Program-made: the position numbers and the translations under genes | Sequence record: OR896831.1 | Source of the DNA: Escherichia phage BubbaBully | Length of the DNA stretch: 51,209 bases | Direction: 5' to 3' (one strand) | Shown: piece after piece, positions 3,683-21,681 of the stretch | Position numbering within the stretch: position 1 is the first letter of the stretch | How the letters are laid out: each line of letters starts with the position of its first letter | Notes under the pieces: generated by a model | Databases searched by the model: none | The model's input: only the letters and a program-made list of their open reading frames with translations | What the model was told of the DNA's origin: nothing

Positions 3683-4798
3683 ATGAAAAAGGTACAGCGT
3701 TTTGATAGCGTTCAGGTCAAAGCAAAGATTGACGAGCACGGTTTTCTTGTAGACCGTCCGATTGTTGCCCGTATCGGGTTGCAGGTTTACAAGACTCCGT
3801 TTGGAGAGCGTCGAGAGTTTCGCCCCGCCTCAGAGGTTTTCAAAGCTGACTCACTGGCTACGTTTTCCGGTAAGCCGATCACTATCGGTCATGTAACCGT
3901 TACGCCGGAGAATGCAAAAGAGGTTGTTGTAGGCGCGTGCGCTGGCGCTGGCGTGCCAAACGGGATCGGTGTTGAGGTTCCTTTGAGCATTTACGACAAG
4001 CGAGCCATTCAGAGCGCGAAATCAAAACAGACCGCCGAGTTGTCAGTTGGTTACACCTCAGTTGACATTGATAAGCCAGGCTGGGGTAATAATGGCACTG
4101 GAGAATACTTTTTCGATGAAGATATGCCGGAGGGCTGGAAAGCCGACTCGGATGATTGGGTGCGATTCGATGCGGTTCAAACGAATATCAGCGTGAATCA
4201 TATCGCGATGGTGTTCAAAGGTCGCGCTGGCATCGCAAAATTAAATCTTGATAGCGAGCAGGAATTCCCGTATCATGACGAGGAATTTTCAAACAAAGAG
4301 GATGAAGTTATGACCGTAAAAATCAAATTAGACGGCGCGGTAGAATTTGATGTGCCAAAAGAGGTAGCCGCTCACATCAACGCGATCACCGCAAAAGCAG
4401 ATGAAGCAAACGCAAAAGCTGACAGCCTGGAAGCAGAGCGTGATGCGCTGCAAGCTAAGGTAGACGGTATTCCGGCGCAAATCGAGGCGGCAGTAGCACA
4501 AGCCAAGGCCGACGCAGAAGCCCACGCGGAACTGGTTGCCGTAGCTGGTGAGGCTGGCGTTAAGTGCGACGGCTTGGACGCAAAAGCGATCAAAGTCGCC
4601 TACGTCAAAGAGGTTACTGGTGCTGATATCGCAGAGAAAACCGACGCTTACATTGACGCCGCGTTTGATCTGGCGAAAAACTCTGATAAAATGGCAGCAC
4701 AGCGCAAAGCGATTAAAGGCGATGCGGAAAAGAAAGAGAAGCAAGACGGCGAAGATAAACCGCTGAATCCTGCGTCTCGTTTGGCTAAAGTACAGTAA
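3683..4798 (+). CDS. putative capsid scaffolding / maturation protein
   Basis: 371-aa ORF between head morphogenesis and capsid genes; C-terminal Ala/Lys/Glu-rich predicted coiled coil. Confidence 0.4.
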   Translation: MKKVQRFDSVQVKAKIDEHGFLVDRPIVARIGLQVYKTPFGERREFRPASEVFKADSLATFSGKPITIGHVTVTPENAKEVVVGACAGAGVPNGIGVEVPLSIYDKRAIQSAKSKQTAELSVGYTSVDIDKPGWGNNGTGEYFFDEDMPEGWKADSDDWVRFDAVQTNISVNHIAMVFKGRAGIAKLNLDSEQEFPYHDEEFSNKEDEVMTVKIKLDGAVEFDVPKEVAAHINAITAKADEANAKADSLEAERDALQAKVDGIPAQIEAAVAQAKADAEAHAELVAVAGEAGVKCDGLDAKAIKVAYVKEVTGADIAEKTDAYIDAAFDLAKNSDKMAAQRKAIKGDAEKKEKQDGEDKPLNPASRLAKVQ

Positions 4799-4810
4799 GG
4801 AGAAATAAAC

Positions 4811-5290
4811 ATGGCAATTCCAGCAACTTATCAAGCTACAATGGCTCGCGCACTGCCTGGCCAGGTTTCCGACACCTCAGCATATAACATTGACGGCGCG
4901 TGTGTTCTCGACGGCAGCGCTAACGTCCTTGTGGGCGTTGCGGTTCAGAATGGTGGTGTTGATTCTATGGGTAACAAACTGATCAAGCCTATGGCTGTAA
5001 GCGGCAAAGCTTACGGCGTTGCAATCCGCTCCCACTTCCAGACCGAAGCGGCAGACGGGCGAATGGTTTACGTTCCAGGCGGCGGCATCAACGTAATGAA
5101 TGAGGGTCGCGTTTGGATGCTGGCGGTAGATGGTCAGACTCAGAAGCCTTATGGTACTGCGATCAAGATCGAAGATTCCACTGGCAAGGTGGACACCGAA
5201 TCTGGCACTGTAGAGCCTAACTGGATCGCTACTGGTGACTTCACAGAGTTCCAGGGTCTTAAGTTGATTGAGGTTCAGGTTAAGCAGTAA
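4811..5290 (+). CDS. head-associated protein, paralog A (decoration-like)
   Basis: 159 aa; shares GRVW...WxxTGD pattern with the next ORF; upstream of major capsid gene. Confidence 0.45.
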   Translation: MAIPATYQATMARALPGQVSDTSAYNIDGACVLDGSANVLVGVAVQNGGVDSMGNKLIKPMAVSGKAYGVAIRSHFQTEAADGRMVYVPGGGINVMNEGRVWMLAVDGQTQKPYGTAIKIEDSTGKVDTESGTVEPNWIATGDFTEFQGLKLIEVQVKQ

Positions 5291-5333: not shown

Positions 5334-5795
5334 ATGATTGACTACGGCGTTATATCTGGATGCGCTAATCCTGGCTTTCTCGTTGATTCAACAATCAGCA
5401 CGATAAACGGCGGTGGGGTTGTCGTTGGTGATCGAGTGTTTGCTGGGTTTGCAGTCTCAAACTACGGAATGATTGATCTGTATCAAACATACGGAGAGTT
5501 TGATCAGGCGAAGGGGGCTTGCGGTATAGTGATCGCAAGCTTGCACGGCTGCGCTGGCTATGGAATACCAGAGGGTGAAGAGGTTAGCGTTATAACCAAA
5601 GGCAGGGTTTGGGCTGTCATTTTACCGGATGAAGATAAGCCGAGAGAGGGGGATAGCGTTATGATTTCGGATGGCGGAATAATCACCTCGCTACCTGAGC
5701 GGTTGGCGCAGTCTCCAAGGGGCTGGGTTTTCACTGGAGACTACGAGAGATATTCACACGATTTATCACTTGCTGGGGTGTGGATTATCGGATAA
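5334..5795 (+). CDS. head-associated protein, paralog B
   Basis: Start at second ATG after GGAGGT RBS; paralogous to 4811-5290. Confidence 0.45.
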   Translation: MIDYGVISGCANPGFLVDSTISTINGGGVVVGDRVFAGFAVSNYGMIDLYQTYGEFDQAKGACGIVIASLHGCAGYGIPEGEEVSVITKGRVWAVILPDEDKPREGDSVMISDGGIITSLPERLAQSPRGWVFTGDYERYSHDLSLAGVWIIG

Positions 5796-15443: not shown

Positions 15444-15479
15444 CCCCGCCTTGCGCGGGGTTTTTTGCGCCAGTATAAT
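15444..15479 (+). promoter_or_regulatory. terminator-promoter fusion unit (hairpin + T6 + TTGCGC-17-TATAAT)
   Basis: CCCCGC-cttgc-GCGGGG stem; -35 TTGCGC 15451-15456; -10 TATAAT 15474-15479. Confidence 0.5.
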
Positions 15480-15515
15480 GTGCAAACCGATAAACAGCAC
15501 AAAAGGTTAAAAGAT

Positions 15516-18500
15516 ATGGCTAAAAATGTGATAAGCGGCAGTAAAGGCGGTTCATCAAAACCGTATGTGCCAAAGGAAATGGAAGATAACCTGATTTCGA
15601 TAAACAAAATCAAGATCTTACTTGCTGTTTCCGATGGTGAGTGCGACGAAACGTTTTCATTACGTGACCTGTATCTTGATGACGTTCCGGTTATGAATGA
15701 CGATGGCACTTATAACTATAGCGGCGTTTCGGCTGAGTTCAGGCCAGGGACTCAAGATCAAGATTACATCCAGGGATTCACTGACACCTCAAGCGAAATA
15801 ACAGTGTCGCGAAATCTTGAAACAGACACGCCATATGTGATTGCAGTAACCAACAAAAACCTATCTGCGATCAGAATAAAAATTCTTATGCCTACTGGTG
15901 TAAAGCAAGAGGACAACGGCGATCTCGTTGGTGTAAGCGTAACATATGCCGTTGATATGGCTGTTGATGGCGGCTCATACAATGAGATTTTGAGCGACAC
16001 GATAAGCGGTAAAACTCGCAGCGGTTACGACAGAAGCCGCCGAATTGATTTACCAGCTTTTAACGAGCAAGTATTGTTGCGCGTTCGCCGTGTTACTCCT
16101 GATAGCACATCGGCAAAGGTTACGGATCTGATTAAGTTGCAGAGCTACGCGGAAGTTGTAGACGCTAAATTTCGTTATCCGCTGACAGGTCTTGTTTATG
16201 TGGAATTTGATTCCGAGTTATTCCCGAACCAGATCCCACGAATAGCGGTAAAAAAGAAATGGAAGATCATAAACGTTCCGAGTAATTACGATCCTGTTTT
16301 GCGTGAATACCACGGCGCGTGGGATGGAACCTGGAAAAAAGCATGGTCTAACAATCCGGCTTACATCTTACACGATTTGATAACCAATCAGCGATACGGA
16401 CTAGATCAACGTGAGTTGGGAATTCCACTTGATAAGTGGAGCATTTACGAGGCTGGGCAATATTGCGATCAGATGGTTCCAGATGGAAAAGGCGGAACAG
16501 AGCCGCGTTACCTTTGCGACGTTGTGATCCAAAGCCAGATTGAAGCATACCAGCTTGTAAGGGATATTTGTTCAATCTTCCGTGGAATGAGTTTCTGGAA
16601 CGGTGAGAGCCTTTCAATTGTCGTTGATAGGCCGCGCGAGCCGTCTTACATCTTCACAAATGATAACGTTGTTAATGGTGATTTTAGCTACACATTCGCC
16701 AGCGAAAAGAGCATGTATACACAATGCAATGTGACTTTCGACGACGAACAAAACATGTATCAACAGGACGTTGAAGGGGTTTTTGAAACGGAGGCGGCGT
16801 TACGGTTTGGCTACAATCCAACGAGCATTACAGCGATTGGATGCACACGACGCAGCGAAGCAAACCGCCGCGGGCGATGGGTTCTGAAAACCAACTTGCG
16901 CAGCACAACGGTAAACTTTGCAACAGGTCTTGAGGGCATGATCCCGTCAATCGGTGATGTGGTGGCGATTGCGGATAACTTCTGGAACAGCGCATTAACG
17001 CTCAACCTTTCGGGGCGCGTTATGGAGGTATCCGGTCTGCAAGTTTTCCTACCGTTTAAAGTAGATGCGCGGCCAGGCGATTTCATCATGGTAAATAAGC
17101 CAGATGGGAAGCCAGTAAAACGCACCATTGCCAACGTGAGCGCAGACGGAAAAACCATTGAGCTAAACATAGGTTTTGGCTTTGACGTTCAGCCCGATAC
17201 GGTGTTTGCGATTGACCGCACAGATATTGCATTGCAGCAATACGTTGTAACGACAATCACAAGAGGAGACAACGATGACGAGTTTACTTACTCAATCACC
17301 GCTGTTGAATACGATCCGAACAAATACGACGAGATTGATTACGGCGTTAACATCGACGACAGGCCAACAAGCATTGTGCAACCGGACGTAATGCAACCTC
17401 CAGAGAATGTTGCCGTTTCCTCTTACTCTCGCATTGTTCAGGGTGTTAGCGTTGAAACGATGGTTGTTAGCTGGGATAAAGTGCCTTACGCGAGCTTATA
17501 CGAGGTTCAATGGAGGAAAGACAACAGCAACTGGTTAAACGTCCCACAGACGGCAAACAAAGAGATTGAGGTGGAGGGGATTTACGCTGGAGTTTATTAC
17601 GTTCGCGTGCGATCCGTTTCTGCTTCCGGCTCTACGTCGCCCTGGTCTGGAATAGTTACCGCATCGCTGACGGGTAAAGTTGGCGAGCCTGGGAAGCCTA
17701 TAAACCTTACTGCATCAACAAATGAGGTTTTCGGAATCCGCGTTAAATGGGGAATGCCAGATGGAACCGGAGACACGGCCTATATTGAGTTGCATCAATC
17801 ACCAGATGGAACGGCTGAAAACTCAAGCCTTTTAACGCTTGTCCCATATCCGCAGTTTGAATACTGGCACAGCACGTTACCAGCGGGGAAAGTTGTGTGG
17901 TATCGCGTGCGAAGTGTTGACAGGATCGGCAACGTTTCCGGTTGGTCTGATTTTGTGCGCGGCATGGCTTCCGATGATGTGACAGATATCATTGGCGACA
18001 TTTTAGATGACATCTGGAATACGGAGGGCGGAAAGGAAATCAAGGAAAACGCCATTGACAGCGCAAACAAGATTAAGGATCAGGCACAAAGCATCATTCA
18101 AAACGCACTGGCGAATGATACGGACGTTAGGATCATGAGGAAGGAAAACGGAAAGCGCAAAGCCGAATTTAGGCAATCAATCCAATTGATCGCAGATGAA
18201 ACGGAGGCTCGCGTTACCGCAATGACGCAACTCAAGGCTGAATTTGACGAGGAGATCACTAGCGAAGTAACGAGACTTGATCAGGCAATTGCAACAGAAT
18301 CAGAAACGCGAGCAACAGCTATTGAGGAATTGAAATCACAGATTGGTGATGATATCCAGGGGCAGTTAACGCGAGTTGAGGAGGCGATTGCAAACGAAAC
18401 AGAGGCGCGTGTTTCTGCTGATACGGCATTAACAGCAAAGTTTGGCGATGTTGAATCAGCGCTGACTGAAAAACTTGATTCATGGGCTGGCGTTAATGGA

Positions 18501-18941
18501 GTTGGCGCACAGTACGCAATGAAATTGGGATTGACCTACAACGGGCAGAAGTACAGCGCCGGAATGGTCATGCAGTTATCAAACAGCCCTCAAGGGTTGA
18601 TTTCACAAATCCTGTTTGATGCCGGAAGATTTGCGATCATGACGAGTTCGACGGGCGGAACGTATACATTGCCTTTTGTGGTGGAGAATAACCAAGTTTT
18701 CATTAACAGCCTGTTAGTGAAAGACGGTTCAATCACAAACGCCATGATCGGTAACTTCATCCAATCAAACAACTACGTTTGGAACCAATCAGGATGGAGG
18801 CTGGATAAAAACGGAACGTTTGAAAACTATGGCTCTACTCCTGGCGAGGGCGCTATGAAAATGACAAACGAAACGATCAGCGTTAGGGATGCAAACGGCG
18901 TTTTGCGTGTTCAGATTGGACGTATTACAGGTTATTGGTAA
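15516..18941 (+). CDS. host specificity protein J (central tail fibre / tip)
   Basis: About 1140 aa; N-terminus (SKGGSSKPYVP...) resembles lambda J; last gene of tail tip module. Confidence 0.85.
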   Translation: MAKNVISGSKGGSSKPYVPKEMEDNLISINKIKILLAVSDGECDETFSLRDLYLDDVPVMNDDGTYNYSGVSAEFRPGTQDQDYIQGFTDTSSEITVSRNLETDTPYVIAVTNKNLSAIRIKILMPTGVKQEDNGDLVGVSVTYAVDMAVDGGSYNEILSDTISGKTRSGYDRSRRIDLPAFNEQVLLRVRRVTPDSTSAKVTDLIKLQSYAEVVDAKFRYPLTGLVYVEFDSELFPNQIPRIAVKKKWKIINVPSNYDPVLREYHGAWDGTWKKAWSNNPAYILHDLITNQRYGLDQRELGIPLDKWSIYEAGQYCDQMVPDGKGGTEPRYLCDVVIQSQIEAYQLVRDICSIFRGMSFWNGESLSIVVDRPREPSYIFTNDNVVNGDFSYTFASEKSMYTQCNVTFDDEQNMYQQDVEGVFETEAALRFGYNPTSITAIGCTRRSEANRRGRWVLKTNLRSTTVNFATGLEGMIPSIGDVVAIADNFWNSALTLNLSGRVMEVSGLQVFLPFKVDARPGDFIMVNKPDGKPVKRTIANVSADGKTIELNIGFGFDVQPDTVFAIDRTDIALQQYVVTTITRGDNDDEFTYSITAVEYDPNKYDEIDYGVNIDDRPTSIVQPDVMQPPENVAVSSYSRIVQGVSVETMVVSWDKVPYASLYEVQWRKDNSNWLNVPQTANKEIEVEGIYAGVYYVRVRSVSASGSTSPWSGIVTASLTGKVGEPGKPINLTASTNEVFGIRVKWGMPDGTGDTAYIELHQSPDGTAENSSLLTLVPYPQFEYWHSTLPAGKVVWYRVRSVDRIGNVSGWSDFVRGMASDDVTDIIGDILDDIWNTEGGKEIKENAIDSANKIKDQAQSIIQNALANDTDVRIMRKENGKRKAEFRQSIQLIADETEARVTAMTQLKAEFDEEITSEVTRLDQAIATESETRATAIEELKSQIGDDIQGQLTRVEEAIANETEARVSADTALTAKFGDVESALTEKLDSWAGVNGVGAQYAMKLGLTYNGQKYSAGMVMQLSNSPQGLISQILFDAGRFAIMTSSTGGTYTLPFVVENNQVFINSLLVKDGSITNAMIGNFIQSNNYVWNQSGWRLDKNGTFENYGSTPGEGAMKMTNETISVRDANGVLRVQIGRITGYW

Positions 18942-18947
18942 AAGCAA

Positions 18948-18973
18948 AGGGAGGCGCATTGCCTCCCTTTTTT
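18948..18973. terminator. bidirectional terminator hairpin at convergent junction
   Basis: AGGGAGGC/GCCTCCCT stem flanked by A-run and T-run. Confidence 0.6.
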
Positions 18974-18974
18974 A

Positions 18975-19631
18975 TTAGTCATATTTTGATGCGTCTATAG
19001 CAAGTATTGATGAAGAATAATAAACCCCAAGCGGCCCAGGCGTTTGAGCCACCTGCTTTGATATTGAGTAAATATTTGATCCAGATGCGCCGGATTGTGA
19101 TTCAAATATCATGTGACCTCCAAGTTGAGGGTTTGGAACGGAGTTTATTGCCGTTTGAAATGGCGTTACAGCGCATGTGTAACCCAAATGAACATCAAAT
19201 GTTATTCCGCTAACTGGTATTTGGTGAGCCTCTAAAGGCTTCATTTTTCCGTGGTATGTCATTTGACCAGCAGAATTATAAAAAGCTATTCCGTGACTCC
19301 CAGGACTTGTTACCATATCGCTAAAAGCGTAAACCCTAATCCATCCAGGGTTGTCCGTCCTATCAATTCTAAGTGCATGATAACCACCATTGTTTATTTG
19401 AGAAAATGCAGTGTATGCACGCGATCCCATTCTCACAAAGAAAAAGCATACCCGATCAAATGGTATTGATGTTTGATAAATGGAACCGTTATAAACACCC
19501 ATATCACCGCGATTAATTAAATTAACAGGCGTAAAATCAGGACTTAGCCAAATTGACCCATCCGGCTTTGTGATCTGCATTCCGTACATGTTACCCCCAA
19601 AACGTATATATATATCTTGACTCGCCAGCAT
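18975..19631 (-). CDS. hypothetical protein (possible C-terminal part of a receptor-binding protein)
   Basis: 218-aa ORF; its 5' end overlaps the upstream ORF in another frame at a (TA)5 tract. Confidence 0.45.
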   Translation of the reverse strand: MLASQDIYIRFGGNMYGMQITKPDGSIWLSPDFTPVNLINRGDMGVYNGSIYQTSIPFDRVCFFFVRMGSRAYTAFSQINNGGYHALRIDRTDNPGWIRVYAFSDMVTSPGSHGIAFYNSAGQMTYHGKMKPLEAHQIPVSGITFDVHLGYTCAVTPFQTAINSVPNPQLGGHMIFESQSGASGSNIYSISKQVAQTPGPLGVYYSSSILAIDASKYD

Positions 19632-19866
19632 TAAGACCAGACCACGAAACAGTATTCCCGCTAACGTTTATTGTTGGCGCTCCCCAATTAACGCCAGCCC
19701 ACGTCTGCGTTCCAATATATCCAGCCTTTAATGTCTTGCCTGGCGGCTGATTGTAATATGTCTTGCTTCCTGATGGTTGTGTGAATCTATCCAAGAAGAA
19801 TACAGGAGTTAATAAACCAGTAACATCCCTTCCTTGTTCGTCGTAAATTGCGTAACCGTATGCCAT
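19591..19866 (-). CDS. hypothetical protein (possible N-terminal part of the same protein)
   Basis: 91-aa ORF translationally coupled (TAATG) to the Cor-like gene; ends just after a (TA)5 tract. Confidence 0.45.
   Translation of the reverse strand: MAYGYAIYDEQGRDVTGLLTPVFFLDRFTQPSGSKTYYNQPPGKTLKAGYIGTQTWAGVNWGAPTINVSGNTVSWSGLNAGESRYIYTFWG
19605..19614. repeat. (TA)5 dinucleotide tract at the frame junction of the two ORFs
   Basis: TATATATATA lies in the 41-bp overlap of ORFs 19591-19866 and 18975-19631. Confidence 0.6.
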
Positions 19867-20132
19867 TATTTACACCTCACATCATAGAAATATTCTGATG
19901 GTTGCCACCTGTTAACAAAGCGAACGCTTTTATTATCAGCGCTCATGCGGTATTGCTTTTGACCGAATCGGTTTTCGCGAACGCCGCTAATATTTACTTC
20001 ATAAGCGCCAGCGACGACAAAGGTCTTTATGTCGTATTTCGCCGTGCATTCGACCTCTCTGAAATTTCCCGTCGCAGGTGCGCCGCAACTGCTCAGGAGT
20101 GCCGCGGCGATTAAAGCCGCAAATCTTTTCAT
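19866..20132 (-). CDS. cor: outer-membrane lipoprotein, Cor/Llp-like superinfection exclusion candidate
   Basis: 88 aa with lipoprotein signal and lipobox (LLSSC); first gene of the leftward unit next to receptor-binding-like ORFs. Confidence 0.55.
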   Translation of the reverse strand: MKRFAALIAAALLSSCGAPATGNFREVECTAKYDIKTFVVAGAYEVNISGVRENRFGQKQYRMSADNKSVRFVNRWQPSEYFYDVRCK

Positions 20133-20564
20133 AATTAATTCCTCGCTTCATTAGTGAGTAATAACAATACCATAAATGGAGATTATTTCACAACCAAAAT
20201 CATCTTTGTTCTTTTTGTTTCTCGTTGTTCACGACAGCACCCACCGTAGAATCGCGCAACGTTTTAGAACAGAAAAAACAAAATAAATCATCTATAATAT
20301 ATAATAAAATCAATAGTTTAGTTTATATGTATTTGTATATTGTTATTTATTGTTTCCACTGTTTCAGTGTTAATTGATGTATTGGCTTGCTTTCGTCTGG
20401 ATATCTCTATTAGCCATTTTATGTGTGTATTTGTACAAACCCCACCGCAAATCCGTGAACAATGAAACAGAAAATAACGACGTTTAAAATCATGCACTTA
20501 AGCGCTGATTTTGTTATCTAGGTGGAAAGATGCGTTTCGAGAACAGAAAAAACAATTGATGGTA

Positions 20565-20592
20565 TTGACTAAACGCCATAAATGGCTACAAT
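20565..20592 (+). promoter_or_regulatory. canonical sigma70-like promoter (TTGACT-16-TACAAT) for recombination operon
   Basis: Near-consensus hexamers preceded by an A-tract; about 30 nt upstream of the exonuclease RBS. Confidence 0.55.
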
Positions 20593-20622
20593 GCACGTAT
20601 ACCAACACACAGGAGTAAGAAA

Positions 20623-21681
20623 ATGAGTGAGTTTAAGGTTTTCACGAGCGCAGAAATGCCGAACAGTGTTTATCACGATCCGAATAGTTGGACTGCTGAG
20701 TACACAAGCGGATCGAATCTGGCTGAGGTTTTCCAATCCTCCCCTGCTTCCTGGAAATTCAAGGAGCGAGACGAAAACGCAAAGCCTCTTGTTTTCGGCA
20801 CGCAGTCGCACACTAATTTTGAGAGCAAGGCACTTTTTGAGGCGCAATATCGCAGAGCGCCAGCGCCGGAGGACTTCAAGGATCTGATTACCAGCCAAAC
20901 GGCTCTCGCTGCGAAATTGAAATCTTTCGGCCTGAAAGGTACAAGCGGGAAGCAATATCCAGAACTGATCAAGATGATGGTTGATTGCGGTGAAGATTTG
21001 CAGGTGCAATGGCTAATAGAAATGATCGCAGAGGCCGAAGCGCGTGCGTCTGGAGTCGAGCTTATCAACGCGAAAGATTACGATGCTTGCGTAGCGATGC
21101 GCCAGGTTCTTGAGTCGATACCAGAGCATAACGCGTGCATGAATAGCCCAACCGCTCAGAGAGAGCTTTCGATTTTCGGCGTTATCAATGGCGTTAAGGT
21201 TAAAGTACGACTTGATCACATTGACGAATGCGAGAATGTAGAGTTTACGCTTATTACTGGCTATGACGACAAAGGGCAGCCGATTTGTGAGGATGTTGTT
21301 TATCCTGATGCGATTGTTATCACGGACTACAAGACCACAATGAGCGCAAATCCTCTAGAATTTGAGCGCCTGGCCTTTAATCACGGCTACTATCTGAAAA
21401 TGTCATTGCAGCACGATCTATTCCGCAAGGCTTACCCTAACGAGAAGCGGCCTGTGGTTGTTAGACTGCTGGCTCAGGAGAAGAAAAAGCCTTACCTTCC
21501 GCTTGCGTACCGCATGAACAGCGAGCAACTCAAGATCGGGCGCATTCAGTACATGAGCGTGATCAATCAGTTTGCAATGTGCCAGGCGCATAACATCTGG
21601 CCTTCATACGCAAACGGAGCGCCGGAGGTTTCGCTTACTACTCCTGATTGGGTGCGCCGCCAATACAAAGAATTTCTGTAA
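20623..21681 (+). CDS. PD-(D/E)XK recombination exonuclease (RecE / lambda Exo-like)
   Basis: 352 aa; D...E.K-type motif (VITDYKTT); adjacent to annealing protein and SSB genes. Confidence 0.55.
   Translation: MSEFKVFTSAEMPNSVYHDPNSWTAEYTSGSNLAEVFQSSPASWKFKERDENAKPLVFGTQSHTNFESKALFEAQYRRAPAPEDFKDLITSQTALAAKLKSFGLKGTSGKQYPELIKMMVDCGEDLQVQWLIEMIAEAEARASGVELINAKDYDACVAMRQVLESIPEHNACMNSPTAQRELSIFGVINGVKVKVRLDHIDECENVEFTLITGYDDKGQPICEDVVYPDAIVITDYKTTMSANPLEFERLAFNHGYYLKMSLQHDLFRKAYPNEKRPVVVRLLAQEKKKPYLPLAYRMNSEQLKIGRIQYMSVINQFAMCQAHNIWPSYANGAPEVSLTTPDWVRRQYKEFL

What the first reader, a model, noticed from the sequence alone, without database searches (positions are those of the whole stretch)
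18975..19866. Receptor-binding-like gene next to cor is split at a (TA)5 tract
Downstream of the Cor-like lipoprotein gene and coupled to it by TAATG, two ORFs (19591-19866 and 18975-19631) overlap by 41 bp in different frames around TATATATATA (19605-19614). Adding one TA unit would fuse them into a single protein of about 300 aa. The downstream ORF has no convincing RBS. This could be a homopolymer-type sequencing or assembly error, a slippage-prone contingency locus giving phase-variable host range, or a true two-gene arrangement.
Basis: seen in the sequence. Interest (0 to 1): 0.6.

Follow-up and report, generated by a model that had tools for sequence, protein, structure and literature searches.

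The report
Two-gene BtuB receptor-binding module, not split
The two overlapping reading frames are not a gene broken at a TA repeat but a conserved pair of adjacent genes (a 91-aa adaptor-like protein and a 204-aa receptor-binding protein) that T1-like phages carry behind their tail-tip gene to recognise the E. coli outer-membrane protein BtuB, so the finding is ordinary.

Summary
The sequence facts are right. (TA)5 lies at 19605-19614. Mechanical ORFs 19591-19866 and 18975-19631 overlap by 41 nt, and adding one TA would fuse them into 297 aa. The interpretation as a split gene is not supported.

- **True start of the downstream gene.** It is ATG 19589. This sits one base after the TAA stop of the upstream gene and just behind a GGGGG Shine-Dalgarno-like run.
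- **Conserved pair.** The same pair (about 91 aa ending ...YIYT[F/Y]WG*, then about 204 aa starting MYGM) is annotated as two genes in Drexlerviridae, Dhillonvirus, Nonagvirus and Stx phages. It also appears in 42 IMG/VR loci.
- **Frame offset.** The offset between the two genes varies (0, 1 or 2), so TA slippage is not a general route to a fused product.
- **The TA tract.** It is simply the codons Tyr-Ile-Tyr. It has the same length in every relative that has it.
- **Closest relative.** The proteins are 100% and 99% identical to those of phage KarlJaspers (Bas06), an independently sequenced, BtuB-dependent phage.

One twist: distant relatives (36 IMG/VR loci, Pantoea phage Vid5) encode both parts as a single protein of about 320 aa behind gpJ. 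The pair is therefore an old, stable split of a one-chain protein family.

The parts
19866..20132 (-). 88-aa lipoprotein gene; candidate superinfection-exclusion protein and first gene of the operon
   Evidence: It has a signal peptide with the lipobox LLSS|C. It gives a weak partial match to the PHROG Cor family (E 6e-5). It is 48% and 57% identical to the equivalent lipoproteins of the BtuB-dependent phages KarlJaspers and FritzSarasin. It sits in the same position as Rtp45 and bas18_0026 in the LptD-type locus.
19591..19866 (-). ORF-A, 91 aa: small accessory or adaptor-like subunit, equivalent to the N-terminal domain of the one-chain relatives
   Evidence: It matches phrog_557 over its full length (E 5e-22). 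All 12 database homologues are 91-93 aa. It is 100% identical to bas06_0025. Its C-terminus ...YIYT[FY]WG followed by a stop is conserved across families. It is collinear with residues of about 1-95 of the 315-323 aa fused relatives, sharing the VSGNTVSW motif.
19605..19614 (.). (TA)5 tract; these are codons Tyr-Ile-Tyr (TAT ATA TAT) within the conserved C-terminal motif of ORF-A
   Evidence: It is identical in KarlJaspers, phiE31-2, haarsle and FritzSarasin. It is interrupted in Zar3M, VT2-Sakai and JenP1 with the amino-acid motif kept. No length variants were found.
19587..19598 (-). Coupling junction: GGGGG (19598-19594), TAA stop of ORF-A (19593-19591), one base, then ATG of ORF-B (19589-19587)
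   Evidence: Read directly from the sequence. The same layout, with a gap of 0-5 nt, is present in all split relatives.
18975..19589 (-). ORF-B, 204 aa: receptor-binding subunit of the BtuB type
18946..18970 (.). G+C-rich hairpin between the convergent J and ORF-B genes; likely a bidirectional terminator
   Evidence: One search finds an 11-pair stem followed by a T run on the + strand. On the minus strand the same stem is followed by GCTTTT.
18382..18941 (+). [quoted passage not shown]
   Evidence: The window matches KarlJaspers at 90% identity over 18382-19982, against about 71-72% in the flanks. The rest of the genome is closest to N5822 and W011D. A preprint reports that the GpJ tip co-varies with RBP type.

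Best explanation
The region is the receptor-specificity cassette of a T1-like (Drexlerviridae, Tempevirinae) siphophage. It is a three-gene operon on the minus strand, convergent with the gpJ tail-tip gene. The genes are a lipoprotein, ORF-A (91 aa) and ORF-B (204 aa, true start ATG 19589).

**Shown**
- A and B are two separate, translationally coupled genes (TAA-C-ATG behind a GGGGG run).
- The arrangement is conserved across several phage families.
- The (TA)5 run is the coding sequence for a conserved Tyr-Ile-Tyr and does not vary in length.
- The B model has the fold of an experimentally proven small-siphophage receptor-binding protein.
- A and B correspond to the N- and C-terminal parts of single-chain relatives encoded directly behind gpJ.

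**Inferred**
- B binds the outer-membrane vitamin B12 transporter BtuB. This rests on 99% identity to the protein of BtuB-dependent KarlJaspers, and on published locus-receptor correlations.
- A is the tail-proximal adaptor that, together with the conserved but unstructured N-terminus of B, docks the complex onto the matching C-terminal tip of gpJ.
- The lipoprotein blocks BtuB from the periplasmic side to exclude superinfection, as Llp does for FhuA and Rtp45 does for LptD.
For: **Two genes, not one**
- The PHROG profiles are separate, and the B match begins at Met15 of the mechanical ORF.
- Annotated two-gene pairs exist in KarlJaspers, phiE31-2, Zar3M, haarsle, FritzSarasin, JenP1, VT2-Sakai and Yersinia P400.
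- Homologue lengths are 91-93 aa for A and 204-232 aa for B.
- The junction table shows a conserved A C-terminus plus stop, a conserved B N-terminus MYG, a gap of 0-5 nt, and a frame offset of 0, 1 or 2.
- The upstream ATG 19631 is ACG in Zar3M.

**Not an error and not variable**
- The junction is identical in independent isolates.
- Every genuinely homologous junction matched by the scan (seven sequences: four of the relatives above, an IMG/VR copy of haarsle, and two further contigs) carries the same 9-nt TA stretch.

**Receptor-binding role**
- KarlJaspers and FritzSarasin, both BtuB-dependent, carry this locus. FhuA-dependent JakobBernoulli carries a different one.
- A preprint assigns the Bas06 family to BtuB, with accessory proteins alongside.
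- The operon layout (lipoprotein, then RBP, antisense to J) matches that of Oekolampad.
- One-chain relatives lie directly after gpJ.
- The gpJ tip is co-inherited with the cassette.
Against: - No experiment on this phage exists. BtuB binding is inferred from identity and correlation.
- In the Stx2 podophage Sp5, the homologues (ORF68 and ORF69, 43-45% identical) are not essential. Deleting ORF69 even raised plaque and lysogen counts (PMC5155283).
- In the 108-kb phage Cyrano the pair lies among non-structural genes.
- PHROGs files the families under 'moron/membrane protein'.
- Sequence profiles do not link B to the Oekolampad RBP (hhalign probability 1%). That link rests on predicted structure only.
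- No promoter-like site was found upstream of the lipoprotein gene on the minus strand.
- The adaptor role of A is purely inferential.
Confidence: 0.82

Rival explanations
1. A and B are not the receptor-binding device. They are accessory or 'moron' membrane-associated proteins carried next to tail genes, for example modulators of adsorption or exclusion. On this reading receptor specificity lies in the gpJ tip.
For: The Sp5 homologues ORF68 and ORF69 are dispensable, and deleting ORF69 increases plaques and lysogens. The pair sits away from tail genes in phage Cyrano. PHROG labels them 'outer membrane protein' and 'membrane associated protein'. They are co-transcribed with a lipoprotein on the strand opposite the tail genes. 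The gpJ tip co-varies with the locus.
Confidence: 0.1
2. Separate A and B are the main products, but a minor fused A-B protein is also made by ribosomal frameshifting or stop-codon read-through at the junction.
For: The B frame is open for 26 codons upstream of its ATG in the window. In some relatives the genes are in frame and separated only by a stop codon (Yersinia P400, L151). Natural one-chain versions show that a fusion can fold.
Against: No slippery heptamer is visible at the junction. The frame offset differs among relatives (0, 1 or 2), and the open upstream stretch varies from 0 to 26 codons, so no single recoding mechanism could be conserved. A fusion would destroy the conserved ...YIYTFWG end of A.
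Confidence: 0.04
3. The (TA)5 tract is a slippage-prone contingency locus. It would switch between split and fused forms and so vary host range.
For: Adding one TA or deleting two does fuse the ORFs. The tract is unique in the window and absent from 100 shuffles. It is conserved at nucleotide level in two sub-lineages, and it has arisen again in a third (L173-175, L187).
Against: No tract-length variant appears among relatives, although their flanks differ by substitutions. In lineages with frame offset 2, adding TA would not fuse the genes, yet they carry the same tract. Relatives with an interrupted tract keep both genes. From general knowledge, five dinucleotide units is short compared with known bacterial contingency repeats. 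No close relative has the fused state.
Confidence: 0.03
4. The split is a sequencing or assembly error, or a recent inactivating frameshift in a gene of about 300 aa.
For: This rests only on the arithmetic of the frames and on the existence of relatives of about 320 aa.
Against: KarlJaspers (128x coverage), phiE31-2 and five further records have the same sequence. A is 100% and B 99% identical to the KarlJaspers proteins. The one-chain relatives are at most 34% identical and have a linker of about 20 residues where the pair has its stop and start.
Confidence: 0.01

Closest known systems
BtuB-type receptor-specificity locus of T1-like phages, e.g. Escherichia phage KarlJaspers (Bas06) bas06_0024 to 0026 and FritzSarasin (Bas04) (Maffei et al. 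2021, PMC8594841; preprint 10.64898/2026.04.02.716166)
   Same: Same position behind gpJ, same three genes in the same order and orientation, and same junction including (TA)5. A is 100% and B 99% identical to the Bas06 proteins.
   Different: The genome backbone differs: it is closest to N5822 and W011D at about 86-87%. The 5' two-thirds of the lipoprotein gene is diverged, at 48% amino-acid identity.
RBP of phage Oekolampad (bas18_0025; PDB 9rpt chain C) and Rtp44, with the exclusion lipoprotein Rtp45 (Dunbar et al., 10.1101/2025.07.07.663478)
   Different: It is a single polypeptide and it binds LptDE rather than BtuB. There is no significant sequence-profile similarity.
One-chain relatives of 315-329 aa behind gpJ, e.g. 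Pantoea phage Vid5 gp23, P0061, P0080, P0094
   Same: They are collinear with A followed by B and share motifs (SGNTVSW, PDF[TV]P.NL, CLPL/KPL). They occupy the same locus directly after gpJ.
   Different: They are one gene on the same strand as gpJ, with a low-confidence linker of about 20 residues where the pair is split. Identity to ORF-B is only 22-34%.
FhuA-type locus of T1-like phages, e.g. JakobBernoulli (Bas07) bas07_0024 and 0025 plus an antisense cor-like gene
   Same: It is also a small protein (101 aa) followed by a larger one (223 aa). The large subunits are homologous (hhalign probability 98%, E 1e-13). The small ones are probably homologous (probability 73%, E 3e-5).
   Different: The pair lies on the same strand as gpJ, and only the lipoprotein gene is antisense. 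The receptor is different. Pairwise BLAST finds no significant similarity.
Stx2 phage Sp5/VT2-Sakai ORF68 and ORF69 (Mondal et al. 2016, PMC5155283)
   Same: It is a homologous coupled pair, 45% and 43% identical, ending ...YIYTFWG* and starting MYG. It lies downstream of a tail-fibre gene.
   Different: It is in a podovirus and is followed by lom. It was shown experimentally to be non-essential on K-12.

Membership tests
BtuB-type receptor-specificity locus of Drexlerviridae and related small siphophages | [quoted passage not shown] | tested here: met
   J occupies 15465-18941 on the + strand. ORF-B ends at 18975 on the minus strand, separated from J only by a terminator hairpin.
BtuB-type receptor-specificity locus of Drexlerviridae and related small siphophages | RBP is more than 30% identical, over essentially full length, to the family exemplified by Bas06 (the criterion used in the preprint) | tested here: met
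   It is 99% identical over 204 of 204 residues to bas06_0024, and 66% identical to the Bas04 protein.
BtuB-type receptor-specificity locus of Drexlerviridae and related small siphophages | Accessory genes (small protein and lipoprotein) are co-located | tested here: met
   The gene order lipoprotein, A, B is the same as in Bas04 and Bas06.
BtuB-type receptor-specificity locus of Drexlerviridae and related small siphophages | Infection depends on BtuB | not testable with these tools
   This is known only for the relatives Bas04 and Bas06 (S5 Table of PMC8594841).
Simple-sequence-repeat contingency (phase-variable) locus | A change in repeat number switches the reading frame between a complete and a truncated product | tested here: inconclusive
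   Arithmetically, adding one TA fuses A and B. But the unfused state is itself two complete, conserved genes.
Simple-sequence-repeat contingency (phase-variable) locus | Repeat length is polymorphic among close relatives | tested here: not met
   All genuinely homologous junctions found in phage, IMG/VR and metagenome data have the same 9-nt TA stretch.
Simple-sequence-repeat contingency (phase-variable) locus | The repeat is retained beyond what coding requires | tested here: not met
   The tract equals codons Tyr-Ile-Tyr of a conserved motif. Synonymous or conservative changes break it in Zar3M, VT2-Sakai, JenP1 and most IMG/VR loci.
Oekolampad/Rtp44-type small-siphophage RBP (LptD-binding) | Shares the three-dimensional fold of the solved RBP | tested here: met
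Oekolampad/Rtp44-type small-siphophage RBP (LptD-binding) | Detectable sequence homology | tested here: not met
   hhalign of the B family against 59 Oekolampad-family sequences gives probability 1.2%, E 0.042. phmmer against the PDB gave no hit.
Oekolampad/Rtp44-type small-siphophage RBP (LptD-binding) | Single polypeptide of about 310-320 aa | tested here: not met
   Here there are two polypeptides of 91 and 204 aa.
Cor/Llp/Rtp45-type superinfection-exclusion lipoprotein | Small secreted lipoprotein (signal peptide plus lipobox cysteine) encoded beside the RBP gene | tested here: met
   The sequence begins MKRFAALIAAALLSS|CG and is 88 aa long. The gene abuts ORF-A.
Cor/Llp/Rtp45-type superinfection-exclusion lipoprotein | Sequence membership of the Cor family | tested here: inconclusive
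   There is only a partial PHROG match (phrog_1119, E 6e-5, residues 1-64, which includes the signal peptide). Pfam, NCBIfam and the PDB gave no hit.
Cor/Llp/Rtp45-type superinfection-exclusion lipoprotein | Blocks the cognate receptor | not testable with these tools
   This needs expression of the gene in E. coli followed by phage challenge.
Programmed ribosomal frameshift or read-through site | Conserved slippery sequence and conserved frame relationship | tested here: not met
   The frame offset is 0, 1 or 2 in different relatives, and the open stretch upstream of B ranges from 0 to 26 codons.

The most novel reading that the evidence does not exclude
The A and B pair is a stable natural fission of an ancestral one-chain receptor-binding protein. 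On this reading, the BtuB-, FhuA- and LptD-type RBPs of T1-like phages, recently described as unrelated families, share one two-domain architecture: an N-terminal tail-docking part and a C-terminal receptor-binding part. In the split versions the small subunit would be a separable adaptor, which could ease modular exchange of receptor specificity.
Probability: 0.5. Interest if true: 0.4.

Novelty: already known. Interest (0 to 1): 0.17.

Why it matters
The main value is in preventing a mis-annotation. These are two real genes and should not be merged, flagged as a pseudogene, or reported as a phase-variable host-range switch. The downstream gene should start at 19589, not 19631.

The cassette also predicts that this phage uses BtuB as its terminal receptor, which is useful for host-range prediction.

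There is a modest side result. The BtuB-type pair is collinear with one-chain relatives. It is a remote homologue of the FhuA-type pair, and it shares a fold with the solved LptD-binding RBP. This hints at a common origin for receptor-binding modules that recent work treats as unrelated.

Tried and rejected
- **Family and sequence searches.** Pfam and NCBIfam scans of all three proteins gave nothing. A sequence search of the PDB gave nothing meaningful.
- **Search with the hypothetical fusion.** Querying the word-indexed protein database with the 297-aa fusion returned only 204-210 aa proteins and no fused form.
- **Variable-gap DNA scans.** The scans of IMG/VR and of metagenomes returned mostly chance matches.
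- **Technical failures.** The search for related loci with the diverse alignment A2 failed for lack of a conserved stretch. MAFFT misplaced the last 10 residues of A and the first 11 of B in alignment A3, which was nevertheless used for the fused-relative model.
- **Weak or negative comparisons.** BLASTP of A and B against the FhuA-type pair was not significant, and only profile-profile comparison showed the relation. hhalign of B against the Oekolampad family was not significant. hhalign of A against B suggested a shared N-terminal motif (probability 39%), but I do not rely on it.
- **Promoter scan.** It found no sigma-70-like site on the minus strand upstream of the lipoprotein gene.
- **Internal promoter idea.** I considered the TA tract as a -10 element of an internal promoter and dropped it for lack of a -35 match.
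- **T1 tail-tip paper.** The T1 tail-tip cryo-EM paper did not resolve the distal tip, so it did not help.

Full report
**1. Observation**

On the minus strand the region reads as follows.
- A lipoprotein gene runs 20132..19866 (88 aa).
- It shares the A of TAATG with the next ORF, 19866..19591 (ORF-A, 91 aa, ending ...GESRYIYTFWG*).
- A mechanically listed ORF runs 19631..18975 (218 aa), in a frame offset by one base, so the two overlap by 41 nt.
- TATATATATA is at 19605-19614.

A script confirmed that inserting one TA gives a single 297-aa ORF. Deleting two units gives 295 aa. The tract is the only (TA)5 in the window and was reached in 0 of 100 dinucleotide-preserving shuffles.

**2. Where the downstream gene starts**

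The 218-aa ORF is only the longest possible reading. Fourteen codons further in lies ATG 19589. It is preceded by GGGGG (19598-19594) and by the TAA stop of ORF-A (19593-19591) plus one base.
- The PHROG family phrog_425 (profile length 224) matches from residue 15 of the 218-aa reading, which is exactly this methionine.
- ORF-A matches a separate family, phrog_557, over its full length (1-91 to 1-92 of 100, E 5e-22).
- tblastn of the 204-aa version found 278 phage records, 275 of them covering at least 80% of the query. All but two of the 60 listed (a record-edge fragment and the distant Yersinia match) align from residue 1.

With this start there is no overlap. The 'missing RBS' is explained by classic stop-start coupling.

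**3. Relatives encode two genes**

The same pair is annotated as two CDS in several phage groups:
- KarlJaspers, phiE31-2 and haarsle (Hanrivervirus)
- FritzSarasin (Warwickvirus)
- Zar3M (Dhillonvirus)
- JenP1 (Nonagvirus)
- VT2-Sakai (a Stx2 podovirus)
- Yersinia phage P400

The junction table shows three things.
- ORF-A homologues end ...YIYT[F/Y]WG followed directly by a stop (P400: ...TIYVWAG).
- ORF-B homologues start MYG[M/L] (P400: MAYTM).
- The gap is 0-5 nt.

The frame offset from A to B is 1 in the window, KarlJaspers, phiE31-2 and Zar3M. It is 2 in haarsle, FritzSarasin, JenP1 and VT2-Sakai, and 0 in P400. Adding a TA would therefore fuse the genes only in the window's own sub-lineage.

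Database searches found only 91-93 aa homologues of A. Among close relatives of B they found only 204-210 aa proteins, even when I queried with the hypothetical 297-aa fusion.

A census of 79 IMG/VR loci gave 42 split pairs. All of them have a conserved A terminus, a gap of 2-5 nt and an offset of 2 or 0.

**4. The TA tract**

In ORF-A's frame the tract is AGA TAT ATA TAT ACG, encoding Arg-Tyr-Ile-Tyr-Thr. This is part of the conserved C-terminal motif.
- It is identical in KarlJaspers, phiE31-2, haarsle and FritzSarasin.
- In Zar3M it is AGATTTATATATAC (Tyr to Phe).
- In VT2-Sakai and JenP1 it is TATATTTATAC, where a synonymous Ile codon breaks the run.
- A separate IMG/VR lineage (L173-175, L187) has (TA)5 with frame offset 2.

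Between the window and Zar3M, the four substitutions in the 41-nt 'overlap' are two synonymous and two conservative changes in ORF-A's frame. In the extended ORF-B frame all four are amino-acid changes, and one of them destroys ATG 19631 (ACG).

A variable-gap pattern (TCAAGA, 5-17 nt, ACKTTTTGGGGGT) was run on IMG/VR and on metagenome contigs. Every genuinely homologous junction it recovered had the same 9-nt TA stretch, with no length variants.

KarlJaspers (128x coverage, Basel) and phiE31-2 (China) are independent isolates with the identical junction. ORF-A is 100% and ORF-B 99% identical to the KarlJaspers proteins. Sequencing error and phase variation are therefore both very unlikely.

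**5. What the genes are**

*Receptor association.* KarlJaspers (Bas06) and FritzSarasin (Bas04) are the two BtuB-dependent Drexlerviridae of the BASEL collection (S5 Table of PMC8594841). Both carry this three-gene locus. FhuA-dependent JakobBernoulli, of the same genus as KarlJaspers, carries a different locus.

*Published background.* Maffei et al. proposed that the locus behind gpJ encodes the receptor-binding protein together with a superinfection-exclusion protein. A 2026 preprint (10.64898/2026.04.02.716166) confirms the locus-receptor correlation across 64 T1-like phages. It names a BtuB family exemplified by Bas06, accompanied by 'one or two accessory proteins'.

*Operon layout.* Oekolampad has the same layout: a lipoprotein gene, then the RBP gene, convergent with gpJ. 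Its neighbour's homologue Rtp45 is an experimentally shown exclusion lipoprotein.

*The window's lipoprotein.* It has a lipobox (LLSS|C) and is 48-57% identical to those of Bas06 and Bas04. Its match to the Cor PHROG is weak and partial.

**6. The twist: one-chain relatives**

An exhaustive HMMER search with ORF-B found, besides many proteins of 202-234 aa that align from residue 1, several of 315-323 aa. In these the match starts near residue 100.
- Their N-terminal parts are A-like, with the motif SGNTVSW and a hydrophobic strand before the junction.
- tblastn with one of them (P0061) hits Pantoea phage Vid5 gp23 as one piece. In the E. coli phages it hits as two collinear pieces spanning the A and B genes.
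- These one-chain genes overlap the gpJ stop codon on the same strand.
- Of the 79 IMG/VR loci, 36 are fused, at 316-329 aa.

Profile-profile comparison also links the FhuA-type pair of JakobBernoulli to A and B. The large subunits give probability 98% (E 1e-13). The small subunits give probability 73% (E 3e-5). The sequence link to the Oekolampad family is not significant.

I infer that A corresponds to the tail-proximal domain and B to the receptor-binding domain of a common two-domain design, and that the split is old and stable. The first 20 residues of B are strongly conserved but modelled with low confidence. This is compatible with a docking segment, but it is inference only.

**7. Caveats**

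- In the Stx2 phage Sp5 the homologues ORF68 and ORF69 are non-essential, and deleting ORF69 increased plaques and lysogens (PMC5155283).
- In phage Cyrano the pair lies among non-structural genes.
- An accessory, non-RBP role therefore cannot be excluded for all members. For the T1-like cassette the evidence favours an RBP.
- No experiment exists for this particular phage.

**8. Mosaicism**

The backbone of the window is closest to Enterobacter phage N5822 and Escherichia phage W011D, at about 86-87%. The stretch 18382-19982 is 90% identical to KarlJaspers, with flanks at about 71%. That stretch covers the gpJ C-terminal tip, B, A and the 3' third of the lipoprotein gene. This fits the reported horizontal exchange of these cassettes together with a matching gpJ tip.

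**9. Verdict**

The feature is a known BtuB-type receptor-specificity cassette, nearly identical to that of a published phage. Interest is low. The residual point of interest is the relation between split and fused forms, and the fold-level link between RBP families that are described as unrelated.

Noticed in passing
window 18382-19982, against flanks 17553-18316 and 20283-20996: There is a recombination mosaic. The gpJ C-terminal tip, ORF-B, ORF-A and the 3' third of the lipoprotein gene are about 90% identical to KarlJaspers, while the flanks are about 71%. The genome backbone is closest to N5822 and W011D. One breakpoint lies inside the lipoprotein gene near 19980, so that protein is only 48% identical to the Bas06 one although A and B are 99-100% identical.
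   Followed up: partly
GenBank MG065643, MG065649, MG065657, MG065680, MG065681 (hits H3-H7): Five unannotated 49,946-bp records are named 'Campylobacter phage' with host C. jejuni. They match this E. coli T1-like cassette at 94-98% identity. The organism or host label looks doubtful, and they may be T1-like contaminants.
   Followed up: no
window 19866..19828 (ORF-A N-terminus) and 19589..19551 (ORF-B N-terminus): Both proteins begin with a similar motif: MAYGYAIYDEQGRDV and MYGMQITKPDGSIW. The one-chain relatives carry it twice, at the N-terminus and after the linker, and the Oekolampad RBP starts in a similar way. hhalign of A against B gave only probability 39%. It may be a repeated docking strand.
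   Followed up: partly
L012 (Escherichia phage Cyrano, OV696614) 3965-4863: In this 108-kb phage the A and B pair sits among P1 Tci-like and Ea22/Ead-like genes rather than next to a tail-tip gene. T5-sized phages (PhiR41_1, DU_PP_V) also carry the pair. Its role there is unclear.
   Followed up: no
window 20133-20622: A 490-nt AT-rich intergenic region lies between the divergent lipoprotein operon and the exonuclease VIII-like gene (20623-21681). A sigma-70-like site on the + strand (20565-20592, TTGACT-16-TACAAT) faces the exonuclease gene. No comparable site was found for the minus-strand operon.
   Followed up: partly
L015 5958-6182 (minus strand) and L011 (Vid5) 5480-5698: The one-chain RBP-like genes are followed by a small gene of 72-74 aa: antisense in L015, on the same strand in Vid5. 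These may be the counterparts of the exclusion lipoprotein. I did not examine them.
   Followed up: no
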